Assembly: GCA_964349285.1 (NCBI GenBank)
Contig: CAYGFQ010000001.1
Location: 1-45,143 of the forward strand
Length of the DNA: 45,143 nucleotides
Direction of reading: 5' to 3'
DNA from: an uncultured Candidatus Saccharibacteria bacterium
GTDB taxonomy: Bacteria > Patescibacteriota > Minisyncoccia > Phycocordibacterales > Phycocordibacteraceae
Position numbers and translations under genes: made by a program. The number at the start of each line of letters is the position of its first letter. Position 1 is the stretch's first letter. The notes under the pieces were generated by a model, which saw only the letters and a list, made by a program, of their open reading frames with translations, had not been told where the DNA came from and did no database searches. Shown here piece by piece: positions 10,648-45,143 of the stretch.

Positions 10648-10662
10648 ACGCACTGTTTCGAG

Positions 10663-10733
10663 TCGGGCCGCAGGGAATCGAACCCTGTCTGTCTGCTCCC
10701 AAAGCAGATGTACTACCGGTATACTACGGCCCG
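10663..10733 (-). tRNA. tRNA-Pro (anticodon UGG)
   Basis: Minus strand CGGGCCGTAGTATACCGGTAGTACATCTGCTTTGGGAGCAGACAGACAGGGTTCGATTCCCTGCGGCCCGA. Anticodon stem TCTGC/GCAGA, loop TTTGGGA with G37, T-arm GGTTCGATTCC. No encoded CCA. Confidence 0.85.
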
Positions 10734-10832
10734 TTTGAGATACCCTACCACATCAAAACCTATACGACACCGTTTTTACAGCGGCCTTAAGGAATACGGC
10801 CTCATTGCTCATTATTTCTCAGACTCGCCTCT

Positions 10833-11465: not shown

Positions 11466-11469
11466 CTAG

Positions 11470-11540
11470 TGCGGCCAGGGAGAATCGAACTCCCGACTGG
11501 TCCTTGGCAAGGACCCGTTTTACCACTAAACCATGGCCGC
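11470..11540 (-). tRNA. tRNA-Gly (anticodon GCC)
   Basis: Minus strand GCGGCCATGGTTTAGTGGTAAAACGGGTCCTTGCCAAGGACCAGTCGGGAGTTCGATTCTCCCTGGCCGCA. Anticodon stem GGTCC/GGACC, loop TTGCCAA. No encoded CCA. Confidence 0.9.
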
Positions 11541-11590
11541 AATTACGTCATACTCGCACATTATTTTCCCGACTTCAATTCCCTACCGTG

Positions 11591-11662
11591 TGCTCCCGCC
11601 AGGATTCGAACCTGGAACGACTGCTTCGAAGGCAGTTATGATATCCATTTCACTACAGGAGC
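11591..11662 (-). tRNA. tRNA-Arg (anticodon UCG)
   Basis: Minus strand GCTCCTGTAGTGAAATGGATATCATAACTGCCTTCGAAGCAGTCGTTCCAGGTTCGAATCCTGGCGGGAGCA. Anticodon stem ACTGC/GCAGT, loop CTTCGAA. No encoded CCA. Confidence 0.9.
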
Positions 11663-32555: not shown

Positions 32556-33329
32556 GTGAAAGCGAAACAGTCTCTCGGCCAGAACTTTCTCATGCACGCA
32601 CAAACGGCGGAGCGTATCGTCGAGGCCTCCGGAGTAGGGAAGGATGATGTGGTGCTTGAGATAGGCCCTGGAACGGGAATGCTCACCCGCGCCCTCCTTA
32701 AGCAGGCAGGGAAGGTGGTCGCTGTTGAGGCCGACCGCGAACTGGTACCCGTACTTGCAGAGACTTTCGCAAAAGAGGTTACCGACGGCACGCTTACGAT
32801 TGTCCATCAGGATATTCGCGAGTTTGATCCTGAGTCGCTTGGGGGTCCTTATCACCTGGTTGCGAACATTCCGTACTACATCACAGGAGAGATCATTCGC
32901 ACGTTTCTCACTACACCAAAGAAACCTGCCTCCATGACACTTCTTGTACAAAAAGAAGTTGCCATACGTATTGCACGCGACACCAAAGAAAGTCTTCTTT
33001 CTCTTTCCGTAAAAGCGTATGGCACGCCGAAGTATTGCTTCACCGTTCCGCGCGGTGCGTTTGTTCCAAAACCAAATGTGGATTCAGCCGTACTCCACAT
33101 CGCAAACATCCATTCGCCGTTCGCTACCGGAGAAGAAGAAACGTTCTTCGAGATATTGCGGGCAGGGTTCGCACACAAGCGAAAGTTCCTCGCACGAAAT
33201 CTCGAGGTCGTTGCGCATGGAGATGCTATTCGTGAGGCCTTCGCAGTTACCAAGCTCGGTGAGAAGACTCGTGCCGAGGACGTGCCACTTAGTTCCTGGC
33301 AACAACTCGCCACGCTCCTTAAGAAGTAG
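32556..33329 (+). CDS. rsmA: 16S rRNA (adenine1518/1519-N6)-dimethyltransferase
   Basis: KQSLGQNFLMH, the SAM motif VLEIGPGTGMLT, and VANIPYYITGEI are classic KsgA/RsmA motifs. Confidence 0.9.
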   Translation: MKAKQSLGQNFLMHAQTAERIVEASGVGKDDVVLEIGPGTGMLTRALLKQAGKVVAVEADRELVPVLAETFAKEVTDGTLTIVHQDIREFDPESLGGPYHLVANIPYYITGEIIRTFLTTPKKPASMTLLVQKEVAIRIARDTKESLLSLSVKAYGTPKYCFTVPRGAFVPKPNVDSAVLHIANIHSPFATGEEETFFEILRAGFAHKRKFLARNLEVVAHGDAIREAFAVTKLGEKTRAEDVPLSSWQQLATLLKK

Positions 33330-33335
33330 TGCCCC

Positions 33336-35009
33336 ATGTATACTTCGGGTATGACGCTTCGCACGCTCATTGAGCGTATCGAGACTTCGCCCCTTACCGT
33401 TGCAGAGTCTGTTTCTCTCATTGCCTCGGCAATTTTCCTGCGAACGTTCTTTGAGAATTTCACGAACGCAAATAACGGCGGAACACTAAACGGATTTCTC
33501 GATACGCTCTTTCACTATCCGCTCTGGTTTGGCTGTGTGTTTCTCGCAACGATACTCGTGCTCTCAGTCATAGCGAAGGTGCCAGTTGCGACTGCACGCA
33601 CACTCGTTGCCTACTCATCATTTGTCATACTCCTACCGCCCGTACTCGACATCTTCGTTCACGGGTTTGCTGCACAACCCTATAGCTTCCTTGCAGGAGA
33701 CTACACAACAATGGCGTTCCACTTCGCAACGCTCATGCTCTTCACCGGAGCAATTGGTATTGGTATTAAACTTGAGGTACTCATCGCACTTGGTGCCACC
33801 TTCTGGTACACGCTTCTAAAGACCGGGAGTGCGCTTCGCGGCCTAGCTGCAGCGTTTTTGGTCTATGGCGCTATCTTCTTCTTTCTTTCGCTTCCGGTTT
33901 GGGGTCTTTCACTTTGGCACGCTGCAACACCGGGCGAAAACGAGACGCTCTCAGGAAAAGCTGTCGAGCAGTTCTTCTTCAGCGATGACCCTGCTGCTTC
34001 TGCTTTCTGGCCGCGCCCCCTTGTGGTTGACGTGCGCGCGAGCGAATCGTTAGTCGGTACTTCCGGAGCTGATCATTTCTCTGTGACGATTTCGTCGCTC
34101 TTACTCATTCTGTTTACTGCTTTGCTGTGCGCACTCTATGCGCGAGCGCGGCCCGCAGGGTTTCGTGCGCTTCTTGGAAACGTGCGCTACACGCGTGTCT
34201 TACACTATCTTTTTCTTGCTGCCGTCGGGTGTTACCTCGGGCTACGCTTCCAAGGTAGTGGCGTTGTACTTTCTTTTGGAGACGTACTTGCGTTTCTCTT
34301 ACTTGGCATGAGTTTGGTGTTCACGTGGCTCTACGCAGTTTGGGAAAACGACGAAGAGGATGTGTCGATAGACAGCATCTCAAACGAGCACCGTCCGCTT
34401 GTTACGGGGGCGACAACTGTTCGAGAGTGGCGTGAGGTGCGCTGGACACTGTTCGTTCTTGCACTTGCTGCAGGATTTCTTGCCGGGTGGTATCCCTTCA
34501 TCTTCATTAGCGTCCTTATACTCCTGTATCACCTCTACTCCTGCCCACCACTTCGTCTGAAACGTGTCATCGGACTCTCCTCAGCAATCGTTGCTGGAAA
34601 TGCTTTGCTTGCGGTACTCGCTGGCTTCTTTCTCTCTGCAGGAACTGAGTCACTTGCAGCGTTTCCACTGCAGACGGCACTTGGTATCTTCACTATCTTC
34701 TTGCTTGCAGAGAACGTGAAGAACATGAAAGACCTAGCGGGGGATCGTGCGACGGGCATTATGACGCTTCCCGTTCTCTTGGGAGAGCGTGTTGGTCCGC
34801 ATGTGGTTGCAGCACTTGCCGCGCTCGCGTTCATCCTCGTACCGTTTTTCTTTGGGCTTTCTGAGTACTCACTCATACTTGCGGGCATCTGCGCCTTTGT
34901 TGCCTATCTCTTTGTGGTGCGCAAACCATACCGAGAACTTCCTCTCTTTCTCCTGTACTTCGTCTTCTTCGCTCTCTTTTTTGCATTTCGTCTCGTTGGA
35001 CTTGCCTAA
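33336..35009 (+). CDS. Polytopic membrane protein: novel ~300-aa N-terminal domain fused to a UbiA-family prenyltransferase domain
   Basis: The first Asp-rich motif NDEEDVSID (NDxxDxxxD, nt 34347-34373) is followed by RPLVTG. The second motif is KDLAGDRATGIMTLPVLLG. About 14 predicted TM segments. Confidence 0.7.
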   Translation: MYTSGMTLRTLIERIETSPLTVAESVSLIASAIFLRTFFENFTNANNGGTLNGFLDTLFHYPLWFGCVFLATILVLSVIAKVPVATARTLVAYSSFVILLPPVLDIFVHGFAAQPYSFLAGDYTTMAFHFATLMLFTGAIGIGIKLEVLIALGATFWYTLLKTGSALRGLAAAFLVYGAIFFFLSLPVWGLSLWHAATPGENETLSGKAVEQFFFSDDPAASAFWPRPLVVDVRASESLVGTSGADHFSVTISSLLLILFTALLCALYARARPAGFRALLGNVRYTRVLHYLFLAAVGCYLGLRFQGSGVVLSFGDVLAFLLLGMSLVFTWLYAVWENDEEDVSIDSISNEHRPLVTGATTVREWREVRWTLFVLALAAGFLAGWYPFIFISVLILLYHLYSCPPLRLKRVIGLSSAIVAGNALLAVLAGFFLSAGTESLAAFPLQTALGIFTIFLLAENVKNMKDLAGDRATGIMTLPVLLGERVGPHVVAALAALAFILVPFFFGLSEYSLILAGICAFVAYLFVVRKPYRELPLFLLYFVFFALFFAFRLVGLA

Positions 35010-35065
35010 CGACGGTATTTCTTGTGCACATACAAGGTATGGCGCCCAGAGAGGGGGCCGTTATG

Positions 35066-35074
35066 TGCTAGTAT
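35066..35074 (+). promoter_or_regulatory. Extended -10 TGcTAGTAT at the head of the T4SS-like locus
   Basis: TATGTGCTAGTAT lies 13 nt upstream of ATG 35088. Confidence 0.5.
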
Positions 35075-35087
35075 TTTCTTGAGTACC

Positions 35088-36002
35088 ATGCTTCATTCTC
35101 GCCGTATTCCCCTCGTTGTCTCACTCCTTCTTGCACTCGGCATGGTAGGGGGAGCCTTCTGGCTCTCCGCTCCCCAGATTCCGACAGCGAACGCGCTTTC
35201 TACCGAAGAGGCACTGCGCGCGTATGCTGAGAAAGACACCGATGCAGACGGCCTCCCTGACTGGGAAGAGGTGCTCTACAAGACTGATCCGGCAAACCCG
35301 AACTCGGTAAGCCAAGAGATGACGGATGGCGAGGCAGTTGCCAAAGGGCTTGTTGCTCCCCGCTTTAAGACTGAAGGGACAGTCGAGGGCGATATGTCGG
35401 GTCTCCTTGAGATATATGCTTCTTCCGGGACGGTTACCGACAAATTCAGTAGAAAGTTCATCGAGAATTTCATCAAAGAACGGGTTGATGGTCCTTTGAG
35501 CGAGGAGGAGCTTCTTACCTTCGTCGAGACAGCAAATGCTGAGCTCTTGCGACGCGACATTTCTCGGTACACTACCAATGACCTGAAGCTTGGGGCGCGA
35601 GGGAAAGAAGCGCTTTTGAAGTACATAGAAGATCTTGATCGGGTCATGGTCACGAATAGTCCTACCCGCGATGCGAAGAACGTATTCGAGCACTATACCG
35701 ACTTCGTAACAGGAGATGATACGGTTCGCTCGTTGATTCGTATTCGTGCGGTCGGGAATGCGTACGCTGCTTCTGCCGAAGCAATGATGACGATTACGGT
35801 CCCTCCTGAAGTTGCTGCGCAACACATTGATTTTGCGAATGCCTACGCGCTCCTTGCTGAAGCAACGCTTGATATGGGCTCGATGGATACCGACCCACTT
35901 CGTGGTCTTATCGGGTTCACGCAGTATCAAGATGTATGGGCACATACTTCCGACGCTTTTGCGGCGCTTGGAAAGACGATGAGTGAACAACTTGGCATCT
36001 AA
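35088..36002 (+). CDS. N-terminally anchored extracytoplasmic protein, unknown function (T4SS-like locus)
   Basis: TM IPLVVSLLLALGMVGGAFWL, then a calcium-binding-like motif DTDADGLPDWEEVLYKTDPANPNS (thrombospondin type-3-like), then a helical domain. The antisense 297-aa ORF is Arg/Cys-rich and rejected. Confidence 0.65.
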   Translation: MLHSRRIPLVVSLLLALGMVGGAFWLSAPQIPTANALSTEEALRAYAEKDTDADGLPDWEEVLYKTDPANPNSVSQEMTDGEAVAKGLVAPRFKTEGTVEGDMSGLLEIYASSGTVTDKFSRKFIENFIKERVDGPLSEEELLTFVETANAELLRRDISRYTTNDLKLGARGKEALLKYIEDLDRVMVTNSPTRDAKNVFEHYTDFVTGDDTVRSLIRIRAVGNAYAASAEAMMTITVPPEVAAQHIDFANAYALLAEATLDMGSMDTDPLRGLIGFTQYQDVWAHTSDAFAALGKTMSEQLGI

Positions 36003-36003
36003 T

Positions 36004-37545
36004 ATGCACCACACTACTACTCATCGGTTCACTACTCGCCTCGGCACATCGCTTCTTGGGCTCATGCTTGTCGTCTCGGCAGGGTTTGCTCTGCCGCAGC
36101 GTGCACATGCGGTGTGGGGTTTTGCCGACATTGTCTTTGACCCAGGCGCACTCGCACAAGCACTCGTCGACTGGGCTATCCAGGAAGTGACCTCGGCTCT
36201 TTCGGATCAGATGGTGCGCAAGGAGTTTATCTTCGACAGCATCGCCCGTATCGCCTCGACTGCGGCACTCCAGGAGATGACCGACAGCATGGTGAACTAC
36301 GCTTCTCAGGGCCAAGAAGGGGAGCCGGCGTTCGAAACGAATCTCCCCAACTCCAATCTGCGTATTGGAGACACGGTCGCAAACGAACTTCTTGCACAGA
36401 TACAGTCGGGTGGTGAGGTGGAATCACCTTTCAGCGTCGACGTGGGGCAGGGAATCATCAACAACTATTTCCGCAGGACAGGAGAGGGGGCCTTTTCACG
36501 CACCGCAGCCTACACGCTTGATGAAAGCTGTGAGAATCACGAAGCATTCATCGCGGGAGACTTTAGCGCCTGTGGCTTCACCGGTTTTGTGAATCTCTTT
36601 GGAAATTCTGCTAACAACCCACTTGGCTTTGGCACGCTCGTCGAGACTGAACTTACGGACCAGATATCGGAGGCTCAAACAACCTACCGCGCGAATCTCG
36701 ATTGGGGAGATGGCTTCCGTGCGGAAACGAACTGTCCAGAGGCAGAGGGAGAAGAAGGGGAGACCACTGAAACAACTGAAACAACTGAAACAACTGAGAC
36801 GACTGACACTACGACTACCGAGACGAGCGGGGAAGTCAGTCTCACACAAACACTTTCCACAAACTGTGATACGGGAACACCTCCCTCTATTGTCTCGGAA
36901 GCAATTAACAGCTATCTCATCGATGCTGGACTTGATGTGAACACAAACGCTGACGAATTGAACGAAGTATTCGTAACGTGGGTGACCTCACTCATTACCG
37001 ACAATCTCTTTGGAGGTGACGGTCTTGCAGGCGGAGTAAGTTACCAGCGCGGTGAGGAGCAAGCAGCAAGTGGAGCGACGGTTAACGCCCTTCGGGTGAG
37101 TCTCCAGACCCAGCTGCCGAAGATTTCCGAATTCAAGAGGAACTGGACGACCATACTGAACATGGCAAAGCAGGCGCGGGACCGCGTGGTCGCGTGTGGT
37201 GCCGGTGTTCAGGATGTACTCGATACGATTGTGCAGCCAGTTGTCGATCAAGGTGAAGACGCTATCGAGCGGGCAGATCGTGCAACGGCAAAGATTGGAG
37301 AATTGACGGTTAAGCTTCAGAACCCAGACAACACACAGGAAGATATGGGCAAGATTCTTGCTGAGTATCAGGCACTTGAAGACTCTGGAGATATCCCGGG
37401 TGTGCATGAGTACATCTTTGCTGCCGAAAACGCTGCTGACACTGGGCCACCGGTCATGGAAGAGAATAGCCTCTACCGCAAGATGCGCATCATAGCCGAG
37501 TCGAGCTGTTCATCCATTGACGCGATGACCGTGCCTAGCAGCTAG
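36004..37545 (+). CDS. Secreted protein, possible VirB5/TrbJ analogue
   Basis: Signal peptide ...LVVSAGFALPQRAHA|V. The mature N-terminus WGFADIVFDPGALAQALVDW resembles the V-x-D-P-x-N-x-x-Q start of TrbJ/VirB5 proteins. It is helical with conserved Cys pairs. The CDS is solid but the function is tentative. Confidence 0.6.
   Translation: MHHTTTHRFTTRLGTSLLGLMLVVSAGFALPQRAHAVWGFADIVFDPGALAQALVDWAIQEVTSALSDQMVRKEFIFDSIARIASTAALQEMTDSMVNYASQGQEGEPAFETNLPNSNLRIGDTVANELLAQIQSGGEVESPFSVDVGQGIINNYFRRTGEGAFSRTAAYTLDESCENHEAFIAGDFSACGFTGFVNLFGNSANNPLGFGTLVETELTDQISEAQTTYRANLDWGDGFRAETNCPEAEGEEGETTETTETTETTETTDTTTTETSGEVSLTQTLSTNCDTGTPPSIVSEAINSYLIDAGLDVNTNADELNEVFVTWVTSLITDNLFGGDGLAGGVSYQRGEEQAASGATVNALRVSLQTQLPKISEFKRNWTTILNMAKQARDRVVACGAGVQDVLDTIVQPVVDQGEDAIERADRATAKIGELTVKLQNPDNTQEDMGKILAEYQALEDSGDIPGVHEYIFAAENAADTGPPVMEENSLYRKMRIIAESSCSSIDAMTVPSS
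36760..36825 (+). repeat. In-frame 9-bp tandem repeat encoding (E-T-T)n
   Basis: GAAACAACT occurs three times perfectly (36769-36795), flanked by degenerate units. It translates to ETTETTETTETTETTDTTTTET. Confidence 0.8.
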
Positions 37546-37557
37546 GCATTCACGAGC

Positions 37558-39624
37558 ATGACAAAAAACCTAAGGCCCATCTTCGACTACCTGCGAGGCC
37601 GCGGCGCGATGACGATAGCGCTCTCTTTCCTTATCGTTGCGGGATTCTTCCTCATGAGCCCGTCTGCCTTTGCAGCAGACTGCGATATGTTTGGTGGCGA
37701 TGCCGGGCGTTGTATCGCTGGTTTCTCAGGAAAGGTTATTGCGACCATTCTCATGTTCTTCACGGGAGTGGCTGGTGTCATCCTCGGTTGGATTGGTCAG
37801 TTGTTTAACTGGGCAATGCTCGTTACGGTTTTCCACTTTTCGTACTACTTCGGCAACACCGATGGCATGCTCCTCGCGTGGGGTATCCTCCGTGACCTTG
37901 CAAACATTGCGCTCTTGTTCGGATTCATCTTCATGGGTATTGCGGTCATCCTTGATCTTCATAGCTTCCCCTGGAAGAAGACGCTGCCGATGCTCATCAT
38001 CTATGCCATTCTCTTGAACTTCAGCCTCTTTGCAGCTGAGGCGATTATCGACGTCTCAAATGCCGTCTCTTCGGTCTTTTATGCACAGGCCTCCGGTGGT
38101 ACTGACTGTCGTGACTCTGAATCAGTCGCTGAGTGCGGTAACAACGGACTTGCTGGTAAGGCACTTGAAGCGACCGGGCTTGCCGGCATGTTCAGCGAGA
38201 ACACAGGAAGTGTCTCTATTAATACGAGCTATTGGGGTGAGAGCTGGTCGCGCATCTGGAACGCAGACGATGGGGTCATGGCCGCAACACTCTTCCTCGG
38301 TCTCTTTGTCTTCATATTGATTACGCTCGCCATTATTGTTTCGGGCTCCATCATGCTCATCTCACGAGCTGTGACGCTCATGCTCCTTCTTGTGACTTCG
38401 CCCATTGGGTTTGCCGGAGCTGCTATTCCACCGCTGCAGAGCATCTCGAAGCAATGGTGGGAGAAACTCATGGACAACGTGCTCTTTGCTCCAACGTTTG
38501 TTCTCCTCATGCTCATTGGGTTCAAGATAGTCGAGGGTATTCGTGATACCTTCCTCGGAAACGGAGCTGATGGAAACCTCATACGCGCGCTCCTTCCAGC
38601 AAGCGGTGCTGCTTCGTCCATAAACACGGGCGGTGTCTTTGTGCTTTTCGCGCTTGTGATTGGTTTCATGTACGCAGCGCTCACTGTTGCAAAGCGTTTT
38701 GGTGTCTATGGATCTGAGAAAGTTATTGGCGCGGCCGAAAGCTTTGTTCGTAGGGCAACGGGCTTTGGACTCACTGCTGTGCCGGCCTATGCCGGACGCA
38801 GAACAATAGGTGCTGGGTCCGATCTTGCCTCTCGCTTCTTGAGAAGGAATCCGGTGCTCATGAACATTCCTCTTGTTGGTACCTCTCTTCAGAAGGCAGC
38901 TACCGGCATTGCTGACTACGGAGCGAAGGCATCCTTTGATGCTAAGTCTCTAGCTGGTGGCAAGCTTGGTGAGGTGGGTGAGATTTCGAAGGGTACGAAG
39001 GAGGGTATGCGTGGTGTTGACGAGGCTGAGGCAAAGGCAGAGGTCGCGCGTGCTGAGGGAGTCGGAAAAGCGCAAAAGGAGTGGAAAGGTTACCGCGATG
39101 CGTACTCGTATAAGAAATGGGGTAAGAATATTAAGAATCTTGATATCGCTATTGAAAAGGCAGAGCGTGAAGGTAGACGCGGCGACGCTGCAAAATTCAC
39201 GGCTGAAAAAGATAAGCTGGAGAAGCGTCAGGAGAAATTCGACGATAAAACGAAGGATGCCTTCATGTCTGGCTCGCAACGCAAAGAATGGAAACAACTC
39301 AAGGTTGATTCAAAGGATCTTGCCGCTCGAATTGCAGCAGCAATACGGGCTGGCAACGCCGGCGCCGCTGACGTGAAGAAGTTCAAAGCGGAGAAAGCCA
39401 CGGTTGATGCTCGTGCGAAGAGTATGGAAGATCATACCTACATGGAGCGCCGCTTCGATCAACTCATGGAAGGTATCGAGCAGCCACTCGCACAGATTGC
39501 ATGGAATACTCGTGGTATGCGGCTTGCTACGACTGAGATGAAGAAGATAATGGGTAAAGGCAAGGAGGACAAAATGCACGATGAGCTCATAAAGGCACTT
39601 AAGGACGCCGCGAAACATCCATGA
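37558..39624 (+). CDS. Polytopic membrane protein, VirB6/TrbL-like, with a long Lys/Glu-rich C-terminal tail
   Basis: N-terminal signal/TM, at least 6 further hydrophobic helices to about aa 400, then a ~250-aa charged tail (KAEVARAEGVGKAQKEWK...). Its position and topology fit a VirB6/TrbL channel subunit. Assignment by inference. Confidence 0.6.
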   Translation: MTKNLRPIFDYLRGRGAMTIALSFLIVAGFFLMSPSAFAADCDMFGGDAGRCIAGFSGKVIATILMFFTGVAGVILGWIGQLFNWAMLVTVFHFSYYFGNTDGMLLAWGILRDLANIALLFGFIFMGIAVILDLHSFPWKKTLPMLIIYAILLNFSLFAAEAIIDVSNAVSSVFYAQASGGTDCRDSESVAECGNNGLAGKALEATGLAGMFSENTGSVSINTSYWGESWSRIWNADDGVMAATLFLGLFVFILITLAIIVSGSIMLISRAVTLMLLLVTSPIGFAGAAIPPLQSISKQWWEKLMDNVLFAPTFVLLMLIGFKIVEGIRDTFLGNGADGNLIRALLPASGAASSINTGGVFVLFALVIGFMYAALTVAKRFGVYGSEKVIGAAESFVRRATGFGLTAVPAYAGRRTIGAGSDLASRFLRRNPVLMNIPLVGTSLQKAATGIADYGAKASFDAKSLAGGKLGEVGEISKGTKEGMRGVDEAEAKAEVARAEGVGKAQKEWKGYRDAYSYKKWGKNIKNLDIAIEKAEREGRRGDAAKFTAEKDKLEKRQEKFDDKTKDAFMSGSQRKEWKQLKVDSKDLAARIAAAIRAGNAGAADVKKFKAEKATVDARAKSMEDHTYMERRFDQLMEGIEQPLAQIAWNTRGMRLATTEMKKIMGKGKEDKMHDELIKALKDAAKHP

Positions 39625-40367
39625 ACGACACCCCAGCAACAGTGACCAAGGAACTCGTTGACGCTTACAAAGCGGCACCAGTTCCCATTCAGCGACTCAT
39701 CCTCTCCGACAAGTTCGCTGCGTTCACGAACGGGCTCGGCACAAAGTTCAGTCTCACCCCAGAGGTGGCCGCCAGTGTTGCTGATGAACTCCTTCTCTTC
39801 CTGCTTGGTTCAATGCCGACGGATGAACTTCTTGGCACACTGCTCGAAATAGATGCCCTCGATGAGGGAATTGCGGTTGAGATACTCGAGGCGTTCTCTA
39901 CTGAGATTGTTGCGCCGCTTCAGGGTGGGGCACCAACAACTCCAAAGCCTAGTGCCCCTGCTTCACGCCCAGCACCAATCACAAAACCTGTAGCGCCTCC
40001 CATCGCTCCTATCAACCGCTTACAAGGTGTGTCGAAACCTTTGCCTCAACAGAAACCCGCTGGAACTATGATGGATATCCATCCGCTTGAGAAACACCTC
40101 GAGCTTCCTCCGCACATCACGCAGACGAAAGCACCACCACTACCTCCGAAGCCACCGTCTCGCCCCTACGTCCCGCCTCCGTCTCCGATGCGCACCATGG
40201 GAAGCGATATTGCTGGAAGCAAGCAGGGTATTGTGCCACCCCCAAAGCCTGTCACCCCCATTGTCCCGAAAGTGGTGTTGCCTCCAGCTCCTTCCAAACC
40301 ACCAACTCCTCCTGCGAGCGACGCTCCTAAAGCATCGTCTGACCCCTACCGTGAGCCGATTACCTAA
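39621..40367 (+). CDS. Proline-rich hypothetical protein
   Basis: ATGA overlap with the upstream gene. A ~95-aa folded N-domain is followed by about 150 aa of P/K/A-rich sequence (PPLPPKPPSRPYVPPPSP...). Confidence 0.65.
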   Translation: MNDTPATVTKELVDAYKAAPVPIQRLILSDKFAAFTNGLGTKFSLTPEVAASVADELLLFLLGSMPTDELLGTLLEIDALDEGIAVEILEAFSTEIVAPLQGGAPTTPKPSAPASRPAPITKPVAPPIAPINRLQGVSKPLPQQKPAGTMMDIHPLEKHLELPPHITQTKAPPLPPKPPSRPYVPPPSPMRTMGSDIAGSKQGIVPPPKPVTPIVPKVVLPPAPSKPPTPPASDAPKASSDPYREPIT

Positions 40368-40400
40368 GAAGGAAAGGGAACTTGCGCTCTCTGCACTTCA

Positions 40401-40409
40401 TGTTATAAT
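40401..40409 (+). promoter_or_regulatory. Consensus extended -10 TGtTATAAT
   Basis: CATGTTATAATC lies 12 nt upstream of ATG 40422. Confidence 0.6.
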
Positions 40410-40421
40410 CTTTGACATCTT

Positions 40422-41972
40422 ATGAGACGCGCATCCCTGTGGAGTATTTTTGAACGGAAAGCTAAAGATGCTACGAAGCAGTATCAAGAGGACGTTGAAA
40501 CGCCCTCAAGCGATAGTCCCGAGGATATCGACGAAGCAGCGCGTGCAACGCGTCGATTCGACCTTCTCGCACGACGTCCCGGTGAGCCTGATGTGCAGGA
40601 AATTATACGTGGAGAGAACGGGAAAGCGTTCAAGAAGTTCCTAAGTGGTCACAATATAAACATCGATGAACCTCTCGAAGAGGGCGATTTGACTCGCGTG
40701 GGTATTTTCCGGGTGGAATTCCTTGCTGCAGTTCATCACGCAGAGTACATAAAGAGTTTTGTTACTACCGAAATCGTCGATGAGGTTATTACGGCTGGAT
40801 TCAGTCGAAACGAAGAGCAGTTCAAGCTCCTCGTTGATACGGTTAACAAAGAGACCTTGGTGAAGATTGTTCGCGACCAAATGGTGGATATGGCAGCCTC
40901 AAGCCCAGACCGCTTTGCTGCATTTGCAAAACGACTTGAGGAGGTTGCTCTGCACAAGAAGAGTAAGGAGTTCTTGGACGCCGAGAAGCGTGTTCGTGGT
41001 CTCTTTGGTAAATATCATATTTCTGATACTCGCTATCTCAGTCTTAAAGAGCAACTGAATGATGACGACTTGAGCGATGAGGACAAGACTGAACTCCTTC
41101 AGAAGCAGGTGCGCTCATCAAAGATTTGGTCCTGGTGGATTCTTCCCAAGCTTCCCATTGGCCTCGCACAGTTGGGAGTTGATAAGTATCTGACTCACAT
41201 TGAACAGGAGAAAGAGAAGCTCGAGGACGAAGATGCTGATCTTGATATTGAGTTTCGTTCTCTCCGACAGCAGCAGATTGACACCTTCCCACGGTTGAAG
41301 GAGCTTCGTGAGCAAGCGTCACAACACGCAGAGGACGAAGATCATCCGATTCATGCTGAGCTTGAATCAGCTGAGGGGGAGCGAGAACTCCGTAGCGATC
41401 GATTGGATGAAATCCGAGAGAGAACTACTAAGATACATAAATCACTTCGGTACATTAATAAGGTTGCGCCTATCCTCGAACGCGTATCATCTCGCGGCGG
41501 AGCCGAGCGTCTTCGAGGCGCCGTCGAAGAGGCAACTGAAGCAGTCGAGAAACTTGAAGAGCAGATGCTTGCTGTTGGGACAACGCTCCAACTTTCTATG
41601 GAGACCTCTTCTTCGGTTCGTGCTGCTATGCGTAAAGTAGAGCTTGGAGAGGTCGCACGTGAAGCGCCTGTCGAGCTTACAAACCGCGAACGCCGAGAGA
41701 AGAACCGCTCCTTTGAAGAGATGGTCCCTTCTAATGCTGAATTCCAGACGCGTTTCGACCGCTATGTATCTCATTCACGAAGTCAGGGTATTACCGCGCC
41801 GCGCGAGAAACTTATGGGCTCATTTAAAGCTCGGGAGAAGCAGCGCCTTGGCCGAGAATATCGCTCGAAGCAGGCAAACGCACTGCCGCTCTTCGGATTT
41901 GTCTCAGGACTTCTCTTTGCAACTCCGGGTGTCGGCATCGGTAAACACCTTGATAAGAAACCACTACGCTAG
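40422..41972 (+). CDS. Highly charged coiled-coil protein with a C-terminal TM anchor, unknown function
   Basis: 516 aa, rich in E/K/R heptad-like stretches. There is a single hydrophobic segment near the C-terminus (ALPLFGFVSGLLFATPGVGIG). Confidence 0.65.
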   Translation: MRRASLWSIFERKAKDATKQYQEDVETPSSDSPEDIDEAARATRRFDLLARRPGEPDVQEIIRGENGKAFKKFLSGHNINIDEPLEEGDLTRVGIFRVEFLAAVHHAEYIKSFVTTEIVDEVITAGFSRNEEQFKLLVDTVNKETLVKIVRDQMVDMAASSPDRFAAFAKRLEEVALHKKSKEFLDAEKRVRGLFGKYHISDTRYLSLKEQLNDDDLSDEDKTELLQKQVRSSKIWSWWILPKLPIGLAQLGVDKYLTHIEQEKEKLEDEDADLDIEFRSLRQQQIDTFPRLKELREQASQHAEDEDHPIHAELESAEGERELRSDRLDEIRERTTKIHKSLRYINKVAPILERVSSRGGAERLRGAVEEATEAVEKLEEQMLAVGTTLQLSMETSSSVRAAMRKVELGEVAREAPVELTNRERREKNRSFEEMVPSNAEFQTRFDRYVSHSRSQGITAPREKLMGSFKAREKQRLGREYRSKQANALPLFGFVSGLLFATPGVGIGKHLDKKPLR

Positions 41973-41975
41973 CCT

Positions 41976-42281
41976 ATGGATACTGACGCACTCTTTGAAC
42001 AGGTTTTGCAGCTCTATGAGAATGGCGATGAGCAGGCGCTTCGTGCCTTCCTCGTCGCTCATGTAAACGAGTTTCCTGAGGAAGTACGCAACCAAATCGT
42101 GTTCTTCTTCTTTGAAGAGGCGGTTACTGACCATGCAGAGGGGCTCGAGGAGAGTCGAGCACTCCTTGAAGAGGGGGCAGACACCCTCGAGACGCTCGGT
42201 GCCCTCAAGAAAGAGCTTGAAGATCGGCTTGGTGCCGAGGAGGTGCGGGCACGACTTGCAAAGCATCGCTCTAATTCCTAA
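41976..42281 (+). CDS. Small acidic helical protein, unknown function
   Basis: 101 aa, starts 4 nt after the upstream stop, Glu/Leu-rich. Confidence 0.5.
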   Translation: MDTDALFEQVLQLYENGDEQALRAFLVAHVNEFPEEVRNQIVFFFFEEAVTDHAEGLEESRALLEEGADTLETLGALKKELEDRLGAEEVRARLAKHRSNS

Positions 42282-42321
42282 CTACGTGCGCAAGTCCCCT
42301 CGGTAGCAGGGGATAATCGGG

Positions 42322-42327
42322 TATACT
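42322..42327 (+). promoter_or_regulatory. -10 box TATACT, 7 nt upstream of prgI-like ATG (leaderless)
   Basis: GGGTATACTGGGGGAGATG. Confidence 0.45.
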
Positions 42328-42334
42328 GGGGGAG

Positions 42335-42748
42335 ATGGAGTATCAAGTTCCTCAATTCATCGAGGTCGAGGATAAGATTTTTGGTCCCCTGACCCTGAAA
42401 CAGTTCATTTATATAGCCGGAGGTGCCGGTCTCTGTGCAGTTCTCCTGTTGACCCTTCCGCTTTTCATTGCTGTGGTACTTGCGATTCCAGTTGCAGCAT
42501 TTGCTGCTGCGCTCGCATTCTACAAAATAAACGGAAAACCCTTCATTGAGATTCTCGAGGCTGGCTTCACCTACTACATCGGGCGACGCCTCTATCTCTG
42601 GAAGAAGGTTAAGGAGGAGGCGGCAACTGTAGAACAAGCAGCACCCGCTCCTCAGGTTCTCCCGCAAGAAGGGCTCACGAGACGCAAGCTCGAAGCGCTC
42701 GCGCTTTCCCTTGATACGAAGCGGGGAAATGGAGAGGAAACTATCTAG
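42335..42748 (+). CDS. prgI: PrgI-family (VirB3-like) T4SS membrane protein
   Basis: MEYQVPQFIEVEDKIFGPLTLKQFIYIAGGAGL... followed by two TM helices is the characteristic PrgI-family N-terminus. Confidence 0.75.
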   Translation: MEYQVPQFIEVEDKIFGPLTLKQFIYIAGGAGLCAVLLLTLPLFIAVVLAIPVAAFAAALAFYKINGKPFIEILEAGFTYYIGRRLYLWKKVKEEAATVEQAAPAPQVLPQEGLTRRKLEALALSLDTKRGNGEETI

Positions 42749-42750
42749 CT

Positions 42751-43380
42751 ATGCCTACTGACGCCAAACCAACACAGACTTTCGTCCCCGTGAAAGAGGT
42801 GCGCGACGGGGTCGTCGTCCTCAAGGAGGGTGGCTACCGCGGTATTCTCATGTGCTCCTCGATTAACTTCGCGCTGAAGTCAGAAGACGAACAGAAGGCC
42901 GTGATTGGTGGCTTCCAGACCTTCTTAAATACGCTCGACTTCTCCGTTGAGATTGTCGTACACTCGAGGAAGATGGATATCCGACCGTACCTCGCTCATT
43001 TGCAAGAACGTATGGAGTCGCAAACAACCGAGCTCATGCGCATACAGCTCCGCGAATATATTCAATTCATCAAGAACTTCACTGAGGGGAGCGAAATCAT
43101 GACGAAGCTTTTCTATGTCGTTGTGCCGTATGAGGCGGGGGGCGTGAAGCAAGTCACAGGTTCTTTCTCACTCTTGGGGGGCAAGCAGACAGCGGCAGCA
43201 GAGGCGACTTCGTTTGAAGCCGACCGTGCACAGCTCAATCAACGTATGGCCTTGGTGTCCGGAGCACTCTCAAGCACCGGACTTCGTGCCGTTCCGCTTG
43301 GCACCGAAGAGGTGATTGAGCTCCTGTATCGCTCCTTTAACCTTGGCGAACTTGAAACGCCAATACGGCTTGAAAATTAA
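42751..43380 (+). CDS. Conserved T4SS-associated protein of unknown function, tightly coupled to the VirB4 gene
   Basis: 209 aa. FVPVKEVRDGVVVLKEGGYRGILMCSSINFALKSEDEQKAVIGGFQTFLNTLDF. Its stop at 43378-43380 is 1 nt before the VirB4 ATG. Confidence 0.65.
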   Translation: MPTDAKPTQTFVPVKEVRDGVVVLKEGGYRGILMCSSINFALKSEDEQKAVIGGFQTFLNTLDFSVEIVVHSRKMDIRPYLAHLQERMESQTTELMRIQLREYIQFIKNFTEGSEIMTKLFYVVVPYEAGGVKQVTGSFSLLGGKQTAAAEATSFEADRAQLNQRMALVSGALSSTGLRAVPLGTEEVIELLYRSFNLGELETPIRLEN

Positions 43381-43381
43381 T

Positions 43382-45143
43382 ATGGCACTCCTCGACTTCC
43401 TCAATCGAAAGCATAAGAACGAGCAGCCAGCTCCGACCTCTGTGCTGCCAGCAAATATCTATACGCAAAATGCGCTCAGCTTTGCTGACACCATTGCACC
43501 GGCTGCTCTGAAGGTTTTCTCGCGTGAGCTCCAGATTGGTGAGAAGTTCGCACGCACGTTCTACACCATTTCGTATCCTCGCTTCCTTACTGAAAGCTGG
43601 TTCTCCCCGGTCATCAACATGGCGCGGGTCTTTGATGTGGGCATCTTCATTCACCCAGTGCAGACAGAGCAGGCGCTTCGCAATTTCCAGCGAAAGGTGG
43701 CTGAGGTGCAAAGCCAAATTGCCGAGCGGGAAGAGAAGGGCCTTGTGCGTGACCCTATGCTCGACACGGCCTACCAGGACTTGGAATCGCTTCGCGACCA
43801 GCTCCAGCAAGCATCTGAGCGCCTCTTTGATGTAGGTGTCTATCTCACCGTGTATGGAGACTCTAAAGAGGAGCTCGACAAGATAGAAGGAGACATTCGC
43901 GGTATTCTCGACTCCCGTCTTGTGTACACAAAGCCTGCACTCTTCCAGCAGGAACAGGGTTTCCGTTCTACGCTTCCGCTTGCGCTTGATGAGCTTGCCG
44001 TCAATAACAAGCTGAACTCTTCGCCGCTCTCGTCTATTTTCCCCTTTGTTTCCTTCGACCTCACCTCTGATCGCGGCATTCTTTACGGCATCAACCGCCA
44101 CAACGCCTCGCTCATTCTCTTCGATCGTTTCTCCCTCGAAAACTACAACTCAGTCGTCTTCGCAAAGTCAGGCTCTGGTAAGTCCTATGCGGTGAAGCTC
44201 GAGATTCTGCGTTCCCTTATGTTCGGCACCGACGTTATCGTGATTGACCCGGAACGTGAATATGAGTATCTCGCCGAAGCAACCGGCGGCCGTCTCTTCA
44301 ACATCTCGCTCTCCTCCGAGCACCACATCAACCCGTTTGATCTGCCACCGGTCAAAGAAGACGAGAACCCGTCCGATATTCTCCGCGCGAACATCATTAA
44401 CCTCGTCGGTCTCTTCCGCATCATGCTCGGCGGCCTCACGCCTGAAGAGGACGCGATTGTCGACCGAGCAATTACCGAGACCTACGCCTTGAAAGACATT
44501 ACGGGCGAAGCAGACTTCACCGGACAAGAGCCGCCGTTGTTGTCTGACTTCGAGAACGTCCTTTCGGGTATGGAGGGCTCAAACTCGCTCGTGCAACGGC
44601 TTTCTAAGTACACGAAAGGTACGTGGTCAGGCTTCATCAACCAACCGACGAACGTGGACATCAATAAGCAATTCATCGTCTTCTCCGTACGCGATATGGA
44701 AGATGAGTTGAAGCCAGTTGCGATGTATATCGTTACGCACTTCATTTGGAATGCCGTTCGCCACGAATTGAAGAAGCGCCTCCTCGTTATCGACGAGGCG
44801 TGGTGGATGATGAAGTCGGAAGATACCGCCTCCTTCCTCTACTCGCTCGCAAAGCGCGGTCGTAAGTACTATCTCGGCGTTTCAACAATCACGCAGGACG
44901 TCGAGGACTTCCTTCGCTCTCCGTACGGCAAGCCTATTCTGACAAACTCATCGATTCAGCTTCTTCTCAAACAATCTCCAACAACGATTGATTTGCTGAA
45001 GGACATCTTCAATCTCACGGATGAAGAGAAGTACTTGCTCCTTGAGTCTGGGGTGGGAGAGGGTCTCTTTTTCGCCGGCTTGAAGCACGTCGCCATCAAG
45101 ATTGTTGCTTCTTACACCGAGGACCAGATCATTACCTCTGACC
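43382..45143 (+). CDS. virB4: VirB4/TraC-family T4SS ATPase (3' end outside the window)
   Basis: This ORF is not in the supplied track because it is open to the window end. My translation is MALLDFLNRKHKNEQP...IGEKFARTFYTISYPRFLTESWFSPVINM.... Walker A is FAKSGSGKSYAVK (about nt 44160-44198) and Walker B is KRLLVIDEAWWMM (about nt 44773-44811). RKYYLGVSTITQD follows. Confidence 0.9.
   Translation, partial: MALLDFLNRKHKNEQPAPTSVLPANIYTQNALSFADTIAPAALKVFSRELQIGEKFARTFYTISYPRFLTESWFSPVINMARVFDVGIFIHPVQTEQALRNFQRKVAEVQSQIAEREEKGLVRDPMLDTAYQDLESLRDQLQQASERLFDVGVYLTVYGDSKEELDKIEGDIRGILDSRLVYTKPALFQQEQGFRSTLPLALDELAVNNKLNSSPLSSIFPFVSFDLTSDRGILYGINRHNASLILFDRFSLENYNSVVFAKSGSGKSYAVKLEILRSLMFGTDVIVIDPEREYEYLAEATGGRLFNISLSSEHHINPFDLPPVKEDENPSDILRANIINLVGLFRIMLGGLTPEEDAIVDRAITETYALKDITGEADFTGQEPPLLSDFENVLSGMEGSNSLVQRLSKYTKGTWSGFINQPTNVDINKQFIVFSVRDMEDELKPVAMYIVTHFIWNAVRHELKKRLLVIDEAWWMMKSEDTASFLYSLAKRGRKYYLGVSTITQDVEDFLRSPYGKPILTNSSIQLLLKQSPTTIDLLKDIFNLTDEEKYLLLESGVGEGLFFAGLKHVAIKIVASYTEDQIITSD

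What the first reader, a model, noticed from the sequence alone, without database searches (positions are those of the whole stretch)
35066..45143. Relaxase-less, coupling-protein-less (within view) type IV secretion-like locus with several novel partner proteins
- Three transcription units, each headed by a good -10 box (35066, 40401, 42322), encode the locus.
- The products are a Ca-motif anchored protein, a secreted protein with a TrbJ/VirB5-like N-terminus, a VirB6/TrbL-like polytopic protein with a 250-aa Lys/Glu tail, a Pro-rich protein, a 516-aa tail-anchored coiled-coil protein, a small acidic protein, a PrgI (VirB3-like) protein, a 209-aa conserved unknown and a VirB4 ATPase.
- No relaxase, VirD4-type coupling protein, integrase, replication module or oriT-like nick site is visible upstream.
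- The locus sits among core housekeeping genes (pcrA, rsmA).
- This points to a chromosomal, minimal Gram-positive-type T4SS used for something other than classical conjugation, such as DNA uptake, host-cell contact or effector delivery by an episymbiont.
- At least five of the nine proteins have no recognisable family.
Basis: partly seen in the sequence, partly recalled or inferred. Interest (0 to 1): 0.75.

Follow-up and report, generated by a model that had tools for sequence, protein, structure and literature searches.

The report
Known Patescibacteria type IV secretion locus
This is a real chromosomal type IV secretion gene cluster without a relaxase, but it belongs to the system already described across Patescibacteria (CPR bacteria), here in a Paceibacteria genome next to the replication origin, so the find is sound but not new.

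Summary
Window 35088-45143 carries nine co-directional genes ending in PrgI/VirB3, a 209-aa protein and a VirB4 ATPase. No relaxase, coupling protein or mobile-element integrase lies within 35 kb upstream or 8 kb downstream.

An identical metagenome contig shows the cluster continues with four more genes, including a VirB2-like pilin. It ends 1.3 kb from dnaA.

The interpretation, a chromosomal minimal Gram-positive-type T4SS repurposed by an episymbiont, is right but already published (Wang 2023 Cell; Quinonero-Coronel 2025 Microb Genom). Those papers report the same gene set beside dnaA/dnaN/rnpA/ksgA in Paceibacteria.

- The "209-aa conserved unknown" is TrsD, the split-off N-terminal domain of VirB4. 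It is a separate ORF in 82/82 loci compared.
- The VirB6 call holds only through orthologs.
- The VirB5/TrbJ call has no support.
- The 516-aa and 101-aa proteins are a relocated two-gene cassette. In two other genomes, including a close relative, it sits beside fusA, between fusA and tuf in the relative.

New here: the -10 boxes upstream of the first gene and of prgI keep their position across relatives. The prgI box ends 6-8 nt before the ATG, which implies a leaderless mRNA.

Substrate and function remain unknown.

The parts
35024..35077 (+). Promoter region of the first transcription unit. It holds an extended -10 (GTGcTAGTATTTT, 35066-35077) 13 nt before the ATG, and an upstream TTGTGCACATACAAGG element (35024-35039) that contains the palindrome TGTGCACA.
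   Evidence: Sequence. GTGnTAnTATTT is found at the same distance from the ATG in about 13 closer relatives, and an (A/T)ATGCACA or AATACACA motif lies about 40 nt further upstream. Function is inferred, not shown.
35088..36002 (+). Gene 1: a 304-aa membrane-anchored acidic protein with a TSP3-type Ca-binding motif (DTDADGLPDWEE). It is the conserved first gene of the cluster. Family unnamed.
   Evidence: TSP3_bac E 4e-4, below cut-off; one N-terminal TM; motif nearly invariant in 28 orthologs; PDB Bap E 1.5e-4 over the motif only. Orthologs were found by tblastn in 27 of the 80 GTDB loci.
36004..37545 (+). Gene 2: a 513-aa secreted acidic protein with a Thr/Glu low-complexity insert. It belongs to a conserved unnamed family (NWINSGFxGSPAFVTDL ... 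GDFSQGG ... NNPYGAY ... WGxGFLSWR ... TPGSVI). It is not demonstrably VirB5.
   Evidence: alignment of 26 orthologs; no family, no PDB relative; AF2 pLDDT 46.7; no fold match.
37609..39624 (+). Gene 3: a VirB6/TrbL-like polytopic membrane protein (about 8 TM in residues 1-365) with a roughly 300-aa Lys/Glu-rich cytoplasmic tail.
   Evidence: TM segments. The protein itself has no Pfam hit. 9 of 49 orthologs hit PF04610 TrbL (best 1.9e-7) and 1 hits TrbL_4. The 47%-identical ortholog in L083 has a precomputed weak TrbL hit.
39621..40367 (+). Gene 4: a 248-aa protein with an N-terminal roughly 100-aa domain, a Pro-rich linker and a C-terminal DPYRE motif. Its start overlaps the VirB6 stop (ATGA). 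Conserved T4SS-linked family of unknown function.
   Evidence: weak homologs at the same position in relatives; family consensus ends in DPYRE; no Pfam family.
40382..40409 (+). Promoter-like site of the inserted cassette: TTGCGC, a 14-nt gap, then the extended -10 TGtTATAAT (TTGCGC to TATAAT spacing 16 nt).
   Evidence: Equivalent promoter-like sites lie upstream of the cassette's homologs in other genomes, one of them preceded by a terminator hairpin.
40422..41972 (+). Cassette gene A: a 516-aa all-alpha, tail-anchored protein (TM 488-506). Lineage-specific insertion, not a conserved T4SS component.
   Evidence: Only 8 relatives among 1.84 billion representatives. Absent from 80 GTDB loci and from L083 and L085. 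The homolog sits in the same place only in sister genome L087. In L094 (the same contig as the L083 T4SS) it lies between fusA and tuf, and in L090 directly after fusA. AF2 pLDDT 74.8, no significant fold match.
41976..42281 (+). Cassette gene B: a 101-aa acidic protein, always paired with cassette gene A.
   Evidence: Pairs of 476-516 aa plus 96-105 aa in eight loci, seven distinct homologues. 50-55% identity to the partners in L087, L090 and L094.
42322..42327 (+). Position-conserved -10 hexamer TATACT, 7 nt before the prgI ATG. It implies a leaderless or near-leaderless prgI-trsD-virB4 transcript.
   Evidence: An exact TATACT or TATAAT lies within 60 nt upstream of prgI in 58 of 76 loci, and 49 of those end 6-8 nt before the ATG. 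The same test gives 0 of 51 for virB6 and 4 of 82 for virB4. The transcription start is inferred.
42335..42748 (+). PrgI (VirB3-like), two TM helices.
   Evidence: PF12666 E 2.6e-11, 44.3 bits against cut-off 27. TM segments. Present in 77 of the 80 GTDB loci at 43-65% identity.
42751..43380 (+). TrsD-like protein: the N-terminal domain of VirB4 encoded as a separate 209-aa polypeptide. Its stop lies 1 nt before the virB4 ATG.
   Evidence: NCBIfam: VirB4 CD1110 family positions 4-169 (E 3.8e-9), VirB4_plasma 102-233 (E 3.1e-9), TrsD/TraD NF041427 (E 2.3e-6), all below the curated cut-offs. Precomputed PF26593 TraC-like. A stop codon separates it from virB4 in 82 of 82 loci, with a gap of 1-6 nt in 58 of them.
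43382..45143 (+). VirB4 ATPase, MPF_FATA type. It is cut by the window end; the full protein is 607 aa and matches CD1110 model positions 181-733.
   Evidence: (E 3.2e-113, 379.5 bits against cut-off 325). PDB 4AG5 Thermoanaerobacter VirB4 E 1.7e-44 and TrwK E 2.5e-8. The 119 best-scoring other homologs listed are 85-91% identical, and those that carry an organism name are Paceibacterota, Parcubacteria or Patescibacteria MAGs.

Best explanation
The locus is the chromosomal, origin-proximal type IV secretion system of a Paceibacteria (Parcubacteria/Kaiserbacteria-like) member of the Patescibacteria. It belongs to the MPF_FATA-derived 'Patescibacteria-clade' T4SS that is already described.

Shown:
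- The cluster holds 13 co-directional genes over about 14.3 kb (window 35088 to a position equivalent to 49394).
- The cytoplasmic-membrane core is VirB6-like + PrgI/VirB3 + TrsD + VirB4. VirB4 is permanently split into TrsD (N-terminal domain) and the ATPase.
- Downstream lie a small 3-TM protein, a secreted Ig-like protein, a VirB2-like pilin with a variable C-terminal extension, and a membrane-anchored TolB-like beta-propeller protein.
- Upstream lie two conserved envelope proteins of unknown family.
- No relaxase or coupling protein is nearby.
- Gene order is fixed between rsmA and yidC-rnpA-dnaA in dozens of species.

Inferred:
- VirB4/TrsD, docked on PrgI and the VirB6 channel, powers assembly of a VirB2-type pilus or conduit through the monoderm envelope to the host cell.
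- The fast-evolving secreted and anchored proteins and the pilin extension mediate host-specific contact.
- The machine exports proteins to the host bacterium or takes up material from it, rather than conjugating DNA.
- Transcription starts at conserved -10 boxes before gene 1 and directly before prgI, the latter giving a leaderless mRNA.

The 516-aa and 101-aa genes are a relocated cassette with its own promoter, not core parts.

The confidence given applies to identity and architecture. The inferred transport role stands at about 0.4.
For: - Family assignments: PrgI, TrsD and VirB4; VirB6 through orthologs; pilin, with 40 of 49 orthologs hitting PF18895 and 19 hitting TrbC/VirB2; TolB-like propeller; Ig-like protein.
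- Downstream sequence from a 100%-identical contig ends in yidC, rnpA, dnaA and dnaN.
- Synteny in 80 GTDB species representatives and in closer relatives.
- Closest relatives are Paceibacterota, Parcubacteria and Kaiserbacteria MAGs.
- The split of VirB4 is universal.
- No relaxase, T4CP or mobile integrase was found, no tRNA lies near the cluster, and GC content is uniform.
- Rates differ by location. VirB4 is 89-94% and TrsD 78-86% identical to the nearest relatives, against 29-68% for the envelope proteins.
- The -10 boxes are conserved.
- Literature: the same gene repertoire, lack of relaxase and dnaA/dnaN/rnpA/ksgA neighbourhood in Paceibacteria (PMC12102498); essentiality of the homologous cluster in Southlakia (PMC10633639); the pilus and conduit hypothesis (PMC12857230).
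Against: - No experiment bears on this organism, and the substrate and direction of transport are unknown.
- The VirB6 call rests on orthologs only, because the window protein has no hit of its own.
- The window pilin's own Pfam hit is sub-threshold (E 0.0058), and the gene lies outside the window.
- No VirB8-like or VirB1-like component was identified inside the cluster.
- A T4CP elsewhere in the genome cannot be excluded, because only about 53 kb is in view. PMC12102498 reports VirD4 homologs in 2,918 Patescibacteria genomes, only 148 of the 5,713 homologs lying near virB4.
- No VirB4 phylogeny was built here.
- Transcription starts are inferred from sequence conservation alone.
Confidence: 0.85

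Rival explanations
1. It is an integrative conjugative element, or the decayed remnant of one, whose relaxase, coupling protein and integrase lie just out of view.
For: VirB4, PrgI and TrsD are homologs of Gram-positive conjugation proteins. A tyrosine recombinase lies 10 kb upstream. Only about 53 kb of the genome is visible.
Against: - Downstream sequence runs straight into yidC, rnpA, dnaA and dnaN.
- The recombinase is XerC/XerD-like.
- The cluster sits at the same chromosomal site, with the same gene order, in dozens of species-level genomes.
- GC content is uniform, and no tRNA or att-type boundary is present.
- VirB4 is 85-91% conserved with intact Walker motifs, so it is not decaying.
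- PMC12102498 found relaxases in only 103 of 3,035 genomes, and only 15 of the 109 relaxase genes lay near virB4.
Confidence: 0.03
2. It is a DNA-import machine, analogous to the archaeal Ced system, that feeds the nucleotide-auxotrophic cell with host DNA.
For: The VirB4 C-terminal region gives weak partial hits to CedB and CedD (E 1.5e-9 and 2e-3, residues 440-510 only). No relaxase is present. Patescibacteria lack nucleotide synthesis (PMC10633639).
Against: - The CedB hit covers only the generic ATPase core and scores far below its cut-off (37 against 700 bits).
- No CedA-like proteins were detected.
- In Southlakia, competence depends on ComEC and type IV pili. Loss of comEC does not affect viability, while the T4SS remains essential (PMC12857230).
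Confidence: 0.08
3. All nine window proteins, including the 516-aa tail-anchored protein and the 101-aa acidic protein, form one dedicated T4SS with several novel partner subunits.
For: All the genes are co-directional and tightly spaced. The same arrangement is found in sister genome L087.
Against: - The pair is absent from 80 GTDB loci and from two close relatives.
- In a close relative (VirB4 91% identical) the pair lies between fusA and tuf, about 70 kb from its T4SS, and in L090 directly after fusA.
- It has its own promoter.
- In other genomes the virB6-prgI gap holds unrelated insertions such as IS200-like transposases.
Confidence: 0.1

Closest known systems
Patescibacteria-clade T4SS as surveyed by Quinonero-Coronel et al. 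2025 (Microb Genom, PMC12102498), Paceibacteria arrangement
   Same: VirB4 of MPF_FATA ancestry. A separate TrsD next to virB4. PrgI/VirB3. VirB6. A VirB2-like pilin nearby. No relaxase and no T4CP nearby. Chromosomal position beside dnaA, dnaN, rnpA and ksgA (rsmA).
   Different: Nothing essential differs. This sublineage has a UbiA-family gene inserted between rsmA and the cluster, and a two-gene cassette inserted between the Pro-rich gene and prgI. There is a single pilin gene with a long C-terminal extension rather than a pilin array.
Southlakia epibionticum ML1 T4SS, SEML1_0006-0019 (Wang et al. 2023 Cell, PMC10633639)
   Same: The same order virB6 ... prgI - trsD-like - virB4. PF18895 pilins. 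No relaxase or coupling protein in the cluster. That cluster is essential for epibiotic growth by Tn-seq.
   Different: Southlakia belongs to a different class (Saccharimonadia). It has six tandem short pilins, a lysozyme/peptidase gene beside virB4 and an NTF2-like (VirB8-like) protein. None of these was found in this cluster, which instead has the TolB-like, Ig-like and TSP3-motif proteins.
Gram-positive conjugative MPF_FATA systems (pGO1/pSK41 Trs, pCF10 Prg, C. difficile CTn2 CD1110 family)
   Same: VirB4 matches the CD1110 equivalog above its cut-off. PrgI matches the PrgI family. A separate TrsD occurs as in pGO1 (PMC12102498).
   Different: No relaxase, T4CP, VirB1-type hydrolase, PrgL/VirB8-like protein or PrgB-type adhesin was found. 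It has a VirB2-like pilin, which Gram-positive systems lack. It is fixed in the chromosome and not mobile.

Membership tests
Patescibacteria-clade T4SS (PMC12102498) | VirB4 ATPase of MPF_FATA ancestry that groups with Patescibacteria VirB4s | tested here: met
   CD1110 VirB4 family E 3e-113, 379.5 bits against cut-off 325. The 119 best-scoring other homologs listed are 85-91% identical, and every organism name attached to them is Paceibacterota, Parcubacteria or Patescibacteria. GTDB loci give the same picture. No tree was built, so clade membership rests on nearest neighbours.
Patescibacteria-clade T4SS (PMC12102498) | TrsD (VirB4 N-terminal-domain homolog) as a separate gene next to virB4 | tested here: met
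   (separate ORF in 82 of 82 loci).
Patescibacteria-clade T4SS (PMC12102498) | VirB3/PrgI and VirB6 homologs near virB4 | tested here: met
   PrgI scores above the Pfam cut-off. VirB6 is supported only through orthologs: 9 of 49 hit TrbL, and the L083 ortholog has a weak hit.
Patescibacteria-clade T4SS (PMC12102498) | VirB2-like pilin gene near virB4 | tested here: met
   L001 14249-15427, three genes after virB4 and outside the window. Its own hit is E 0.0058. 40 of 49 orthologs hit PF18895 (best 3e-11) and 19 hit TrbC/VirB2. Signal peptide plus 2 TM.
Patescibacteria-clade T4SS (PMC12102498) | No relaxase or T4CP nearby; chromosomal, near dnaA/dnaN/rnpA/ksgA | tested here: met
   dnaA starts 1.3 kb after the last cluster gene. 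Only about 53 kb is in view.
Patescibacteria-clade T4SS (PMC12102498) | Required for host-dependent (epibiotic) growth | not testable with these tools
   Shown only for Southlakia by Tn-seq (PMC10633639). No Paceibacteria relative came up as cultivated in the literature read here.
Conjugative T4SS / ICE | Relaxase, VirD4/TcpA-type coupling protein, integrase with att sites, mobility | tested here: not met
   None found in window 1-45143 or in the 8.2 kb downstream. The recombinase is XerC/XerD-like. Synteny is fixed across species.
VirB5/TrbJ (claimed for the 513-aa protein) | Sequence or fold similarity to VirB5/TraC/TrbJ | tested here: not met
   No Pfam or NCBIfam hit. A profile of 26 orthologs finds no PDB relative. 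The AF2 model is poor (pLDDT 46.7), so the Foldseek search, which gave nothing at E <= 0.001, is only a weak test.
VirB8/PrgL-like and VirB1-like components | NTF2-like bitopic protein; peptidoglycan hydrolase inside the cluster | tested here: inconclusive
   No hit in any cluster protein. The only trace is an insignificant VirB8 match for gene 1 (E 0.89). The nearest hydrolase is the M23+LysM gene at 28667-29749 on the minus strand, 5 kb upstream and syntenic in L085 and L086. Structures of most envelope proteins could not be predicted with deep alignments.
Archaeal Ced DNA-import system | CedB ATPase with CedA/A1/A2 membrane proteins | tested here: not met
   CedB match of 37 bits against cut-off 700, confined to residues 440-510. 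No CedA-like hits.

The most novel reading that the evidence does not exclude
In this sublineage the essential-type T4SS operon has captured two foreign modules. One is a UbiA-family polytopic prenyltransferase at its 5' edge. The other is a self-promoted pair, a 516-aa tail-anchored all-alpha protein plus a 101-aa acidic partner, moved from the fusA-tuf site to just upstream of prgI. The most novel reading not excluded is that the pair has been recruited as a T4SS cargo-and-chaperone or membrane-active effector module. The best Foldseek neighbours, all non-significant, include ClyA-type alpha-pore-forming toxins. If so, this would be a first candidate substrate for the Patescibacteria T4SS.
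Probability: 0.07. Interest if true: 0.6.

Novelty: new member of a known kind. Interest (0 to 1): 0.3.

Why it matters
The Patescibacteria T4SS is, by the FEMS review's account, the first T4SS shown to be essential for the survival of its bearer, and its substrate is unknown. That makes it an important open problem. This locus adds another Paceibacteria example rather than a new system.

What the work here adds is practical:
- A clean 13-gene parts list for the Kaiserbacteria-like arrangement.
- Evidence that the cytoplasmic core (TrsD and VirB4) is nearly frozen while the surface parts evolve fast.
- Conserved promoter positions, which imply a leaderless prgI-trsD-virB4 mRNA.
- A warning that genes lying inside the operon, such as the 516/101 cassette, are not necessarily parts of the machine.

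Tried and rejected
1. The word-indexed homolog search returned only 3 hits for the 513-aa protein, both with the single sequence and with a 26-sequence alignment. The Thr/Glu low-complexity insert probably consumed the candidate list.
3. PDB profile searches for VirB6 orthologs hit only coiled-coil noise from the K/E tail. The pilin family hit nothing, and TrsD alone hit nothing.
4. The generic sigma-70 scan found none of the three claimed promoters and fewer sites than in shuffles. I replaced it with a comparative positional test.
5. The fold search for the 516-aa protein gave only weak, non-significant helical-bundle matches (ABC exporter TM domains, ClyA-family toxins). I treat these as a lead, not a result.
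6. Pfam scans of the orthologs of the Pro-rich protein and of the 3-TM protein after virB4 found no family. They revealed only unrelated insertions in some genomes.
7. ICE, DNA-import and pseudogene readings were considered and rejected (see the rival explanations).
8. A frameshifted VirB4 was rejected because the TrsD/VirB4 split is universal.

Full report
**What is in the window.**
- Nine co-directional ORFs fill window 35022-45143 on the + strand.
- The gene calls on an identical public contig start three of them at a later ATG (35088, 36004, 37609).
  - a membrane-anchored acidic protein with a TSP3-type Ca motif;
  - a secreted acidic 513-aa protein;
  - a polytopic protein with about 8 TM helices and a roughly 300-aa Lys/Glu tail;
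  - a 20%-proline protein;
  - a 516-aa protein with a single C-terminal TM helix;
  - a 101-aa acidic protein;
  - a two-TM PrgI protein (PF12666, 44.3 bits against cut-off 27);
  - a 209-aa protein;
  - a VirB4 ATPase cut by the window end (NCBIfam CD1110 family, E 3e-113, with Walker A GSGKS and Walker B LLVIDE).

**What lies beyond the window.**
- The 209-aa protein is found, letter for letter, on ENA metagenome contig ERZ27247837:k141_1110706.
- That contig (locus L001) is 100% identical to window 32751-45143 and extends 8.2 kb further.
- VirB4 is 607 aa in full. After it come:
  - a 254-aa 3-TM protein;
  - a 318-aa secreted protein;
  - a 392-aa protein whose first roughly 150 residues are a VirB2-like pilin;
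  - a 404-aa membrane-anchored protein.
- Then follow yidC and rnpA on the opposite strand, and dnaA and dnaN.
- The cluster therefore has 13 genes over about 14.3 kb and ends 1.3 kb from dnaA.

**What lies upstream.**
- The window upstream holds ordinary chromosomal genes: RNase Y-like, prephenate dehydratase, RarA, the CCA-adding enzyme, exonuclease III, a tRNA cluster, an XerC/XerD-like recombinase, an M23+LysM peptidase, pcrA, a CPBP protease, rsmA and a UbiA-family protein.
- GC content is flat across the window.

**Corrected assignments.**

*The 209-aa protein.*
- It is not an unknown. It aligns to positions 4-169 of the CD1110 VirB4 model (E 3.8e-9), to positions 102-233 of the mycoplasma VirB4 model (E 3.1e-9), and to the TrsD/TraD family (E 2.3e-6). 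These scores are below the curated cut-offs.
- The VirB4 ORF aligns to positions 181-733 of the same CD1110 model.
- VirB4 is therefore encoded in two pieces.
- A stop codon separates the pieces in all 82 loci examined, with a gap of 1-6 nt in 58 of them. This is a fixed split, not a frameshift.

*The polytopic protein.*
- It has no family hit of its own.
- 9 of its 49 orthologs hit PF04610 TrbL/VirB6 (best 1.9e-7) and one hits TrbL_4. The 47%-identical ortholog in a close relative carries a weak TrbL hit.
- VirB6 is accepted on that transitive basis.

*The pilin.*
- Its own hit is weak (E 0.0058).
- 40 of 49 orthologs hit PF18895 T4SS_pilin and 19 hit TrbC/VirB2.

*The downstream envelope proteins.*
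- The 404-aa family matches the TolB beta-propeller (E 4e-4).
- The 318-aa family matches the Ig-like Hoc protein weakly (E 0.0025).

*The first gene.*
- Its family shares only the Ca-binding motif with Bap.

*The 513-aa protein.*
- It belongs to a well-conserved family with striking motifs.
- Nothing links it to VirB5 or TrbJ. It has no Pfam or NCBIfam hit and no PDB relative by profile.
- The AlphaFold model was poor and gave no fold match.

**Who carries it and how conserved it is.**
- The 119 best-scoring VirB4 homologs listed after the exact match are 85-91% identical. Those that carry an organism name are Paceibacterota, Parcubacteria or 'Patescibacteria group' MAGs.
- A scan of one genome per GTDB species returned 531 confirmed relatives among the 600 candidate stretches examined. 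The 80 best are Paceibacterota, Kaiserbacteria or Parcubacteria.
- Gene order in these loci and in closer relatives is:
  - pcrA - (CPBP protease) - rsmA;
  - TSP3-motif protein - 513-aa family - VirB6;
  - Pro-rich protein - [variable slot];
  - PrgI - TrsD - VirB4;
  - small TM protein - Ig-like protein - pilin - TolB-like protein;
  - yidC(-) - rnpA(-) - dnaA - dnaN.
- One subgroup lacks the rsmA-to-VirB6 block upstream of prgI.
- Against the three nearest relatives, VirB4 is 89-94% and TrsD 78-86% identical, much like dnaA (89-94% in the two relatives whose locus reaches it).
- The envelope proteins are only 29-68% identical. This is the pattern expected of a conserved motor with fast-evolving surface parts.

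**Parts that do not belong to the conserved machine.**
- The 516-aa protein has only eight relatives among 1.84 billion representative proteins.
- It and the 101-aa protein are missing from all 80 GTDB loci and from two of the three closest relatives.
- The pair lies inside the T4SS cluster only in sister genome L087.
- One close relative has VirB4 91% identical. There the homologous pair lies on the same 647-kb contig as its T4SS but about 70 kb away, between fusA and tuf.
- A more distant genome also has the pair directly after fusA.
- The pair has its own promoter-like site.
- In other genomes the virB6-prgI slot holds IS200-like transposases and other unrelated genes. The slot is an insertion hotspot, and the pair is a relocated cassette.
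- The AlphaFold model of the 516-aa protein is all-alpha (pLDDT 74.8). It has no significant structural neighbour.
- The UbiA-family gene between rsmA and the cluster is likewise restricted to this sublineage.

**Transcription units.**
- The generic scan does not report them, but comparison with relatives does support them.
- An exact TATACT or TATAAT lies within 60 nt upstream of prgI in 58 of 76 loci, and 49 of these end 6-8 nt before the start codon. The same test gives 0 of 51 for virB6 and 4 of 82 for virB4.
- That spacing puts the transcription start on or next to the ATG, which implies a leaderless prgI-trsD-virB4 mRNA. dnaA shows a similar arrangement. This is an inference from sequence.
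- About 13 of the closer relatives keep GTGnTAnTATTT 13-16 nt before the ATG of the first gene. They also keep an ATGCACA-type motif about 40 nt further upstream.

**Comparison with what is known.**
- Wang et al. 2023 described an essential T4SS gene cluster in the saccharibacterium Southlakia. It has VirB6, PrgI, a TrsD-like protein, VirB4 and PF18895 pilins, and no relaxase or coupling protein (PMC10633639).
- Quinonero-Coronel et al. 2025 surveyed 3,035 Patescibacteria genomes (PMC12102498). They found:
  - a monophyletic VirB4 clade nested in MPF_FATA;
  - TrsD as the most abundant partner;
  - PrgI/VirB3, VirB6 and VirB2-like pilins near virB4;
  - relaxases in only 103 genomes;
  - T4CP genes rarely near virB4;
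  - in Paceibacteria, a neighbourhood of dnaA, dnaN, rnpA and ksgA.
- A 2025 review discusses the possible pilus and its role as a conduit to the host (PMC12857230).
- Every defining feature that could be tested here is met, so the locus is a member of that system.
- It fails the tests for a conjugative element and for a Ced-type importer.

**How it most likely works.**
- Shown: the gene content, the split ATPase with intact motifs, the membrane topology, and the fixed origin-proximal chromosomal position.
- Inferred from established T4SS biology and the cited papers:
  - PrgI/VirB3 and VirB6 form the membrane platform.
  - TrsD and VirB4 together act as the assembly ATPase.
  - The VirB2-like pilin, whose C-terminal extension would face outward, builds a short pilus or conduit through the monoderm wall.
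  - The variable secreted and anchored proteins contact the host.
- Whether proteins go out or host molecules come in is unknown.

**Verdict.**
The locus is real and important to the organism, but already described as a class.
- I rate novelty as 'new member of a known kind' and interest at 0.3.

Noticed in passing
window 42322-42335; L003-L082 upstream of prgI; also upstream of dnaA (L001 about 17950-17970): A -10 hexamer (TATACT or TATAAT) ends 6-8 nt before the prgI ATG in 49 of 76 loci, and 8-11 nt before the dnaA ATG in 25 of 61 loci. This suggests leaderless mRNAs are common in this Paceibacteria group.
   Followed up: partly
window 35024-35039 and equivalent sites in L004, L006-L013, L019, L022, L083, L087: A conserved (A/T)ATGCACA or AATACACA motif lies about 40 nt upstream of the extended -10 of the first T4SS gene. 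In the window it reads TTGTGCACATACAAGG and contains the palindrome TGTGCACA. It may be an operator for a regulator of the cluster.
   Followed up: partly
window 40422-42281; L087 10001-11868; L094 8001-9839; L090 10001-11811: A two-gene cassette (a roughly 500-aa tail-anchored all-alpha protein plus a roughly 100-aa acidic protein) lies between fusA and tuf in a close relative and directly after fusA in a more distant genome, but inside the T4SS operon in this sublineage. The family has only 8 members among 1.84 billion representative proteins.
   Followed up: yes
window 33336-35009: A 557-aa UbiA-family prenyltransferase has an extra roughly 300-aa N-terminal polytopic region (the UbiA domain covers residues 310-529). 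It is inserted between rsmA and the T4SS cluster only in this genome and in L087, and a terminator-like hairpin overlaps its stop codon (34993-35012).
   Followed up: partly
virB6-prgI gap in L003-L082: The slot between the Pro-rich gene and prgI varies in content among genomes. In some it holds IS200-like transposases, a 23S-rRNA-IVP protein or a DnaJ-domain protein, so it behaves as an insertion hotspot inside an otherwise rigid operon.
   Followed up: partly
L001 14249-15427 and orthologs (134-473 aa): The VirB2-like pilin carries a C-terminal extension of very variable length and sequence, about 240 aa and Cys-containing in this genome. This contrasts with the tandem array of short pilins in Saccharimonadia.
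   Followed up: partly
window 28667-29749 (minus strand): An M23 peptidase with LysM domains lies 5 kb upstream of the cluster and is syntenic in L085 and L086. It could serve as the missing VirB1-like wall hydrolase, or it may simply be a conserved neighbour.
   Followed up: no
window 14680-20124 and 20207-21127: An 1814-aa surface protein has Big_9/cadherin-like, DUF642, SpaA-like and peptidoglycan-binding domains. It is followed by a CAP-domain secreted protein. Both are likely host-contact factors unrelated to the T4SS.
   Followed up: no
window 2118-2876 (minus strand) and 5690-6469: Two TrmB-family transcriptional regulators lie within 4 kb of each other. A cluster of four tRNA genes lies at 8781-11662.
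   Followed up: no
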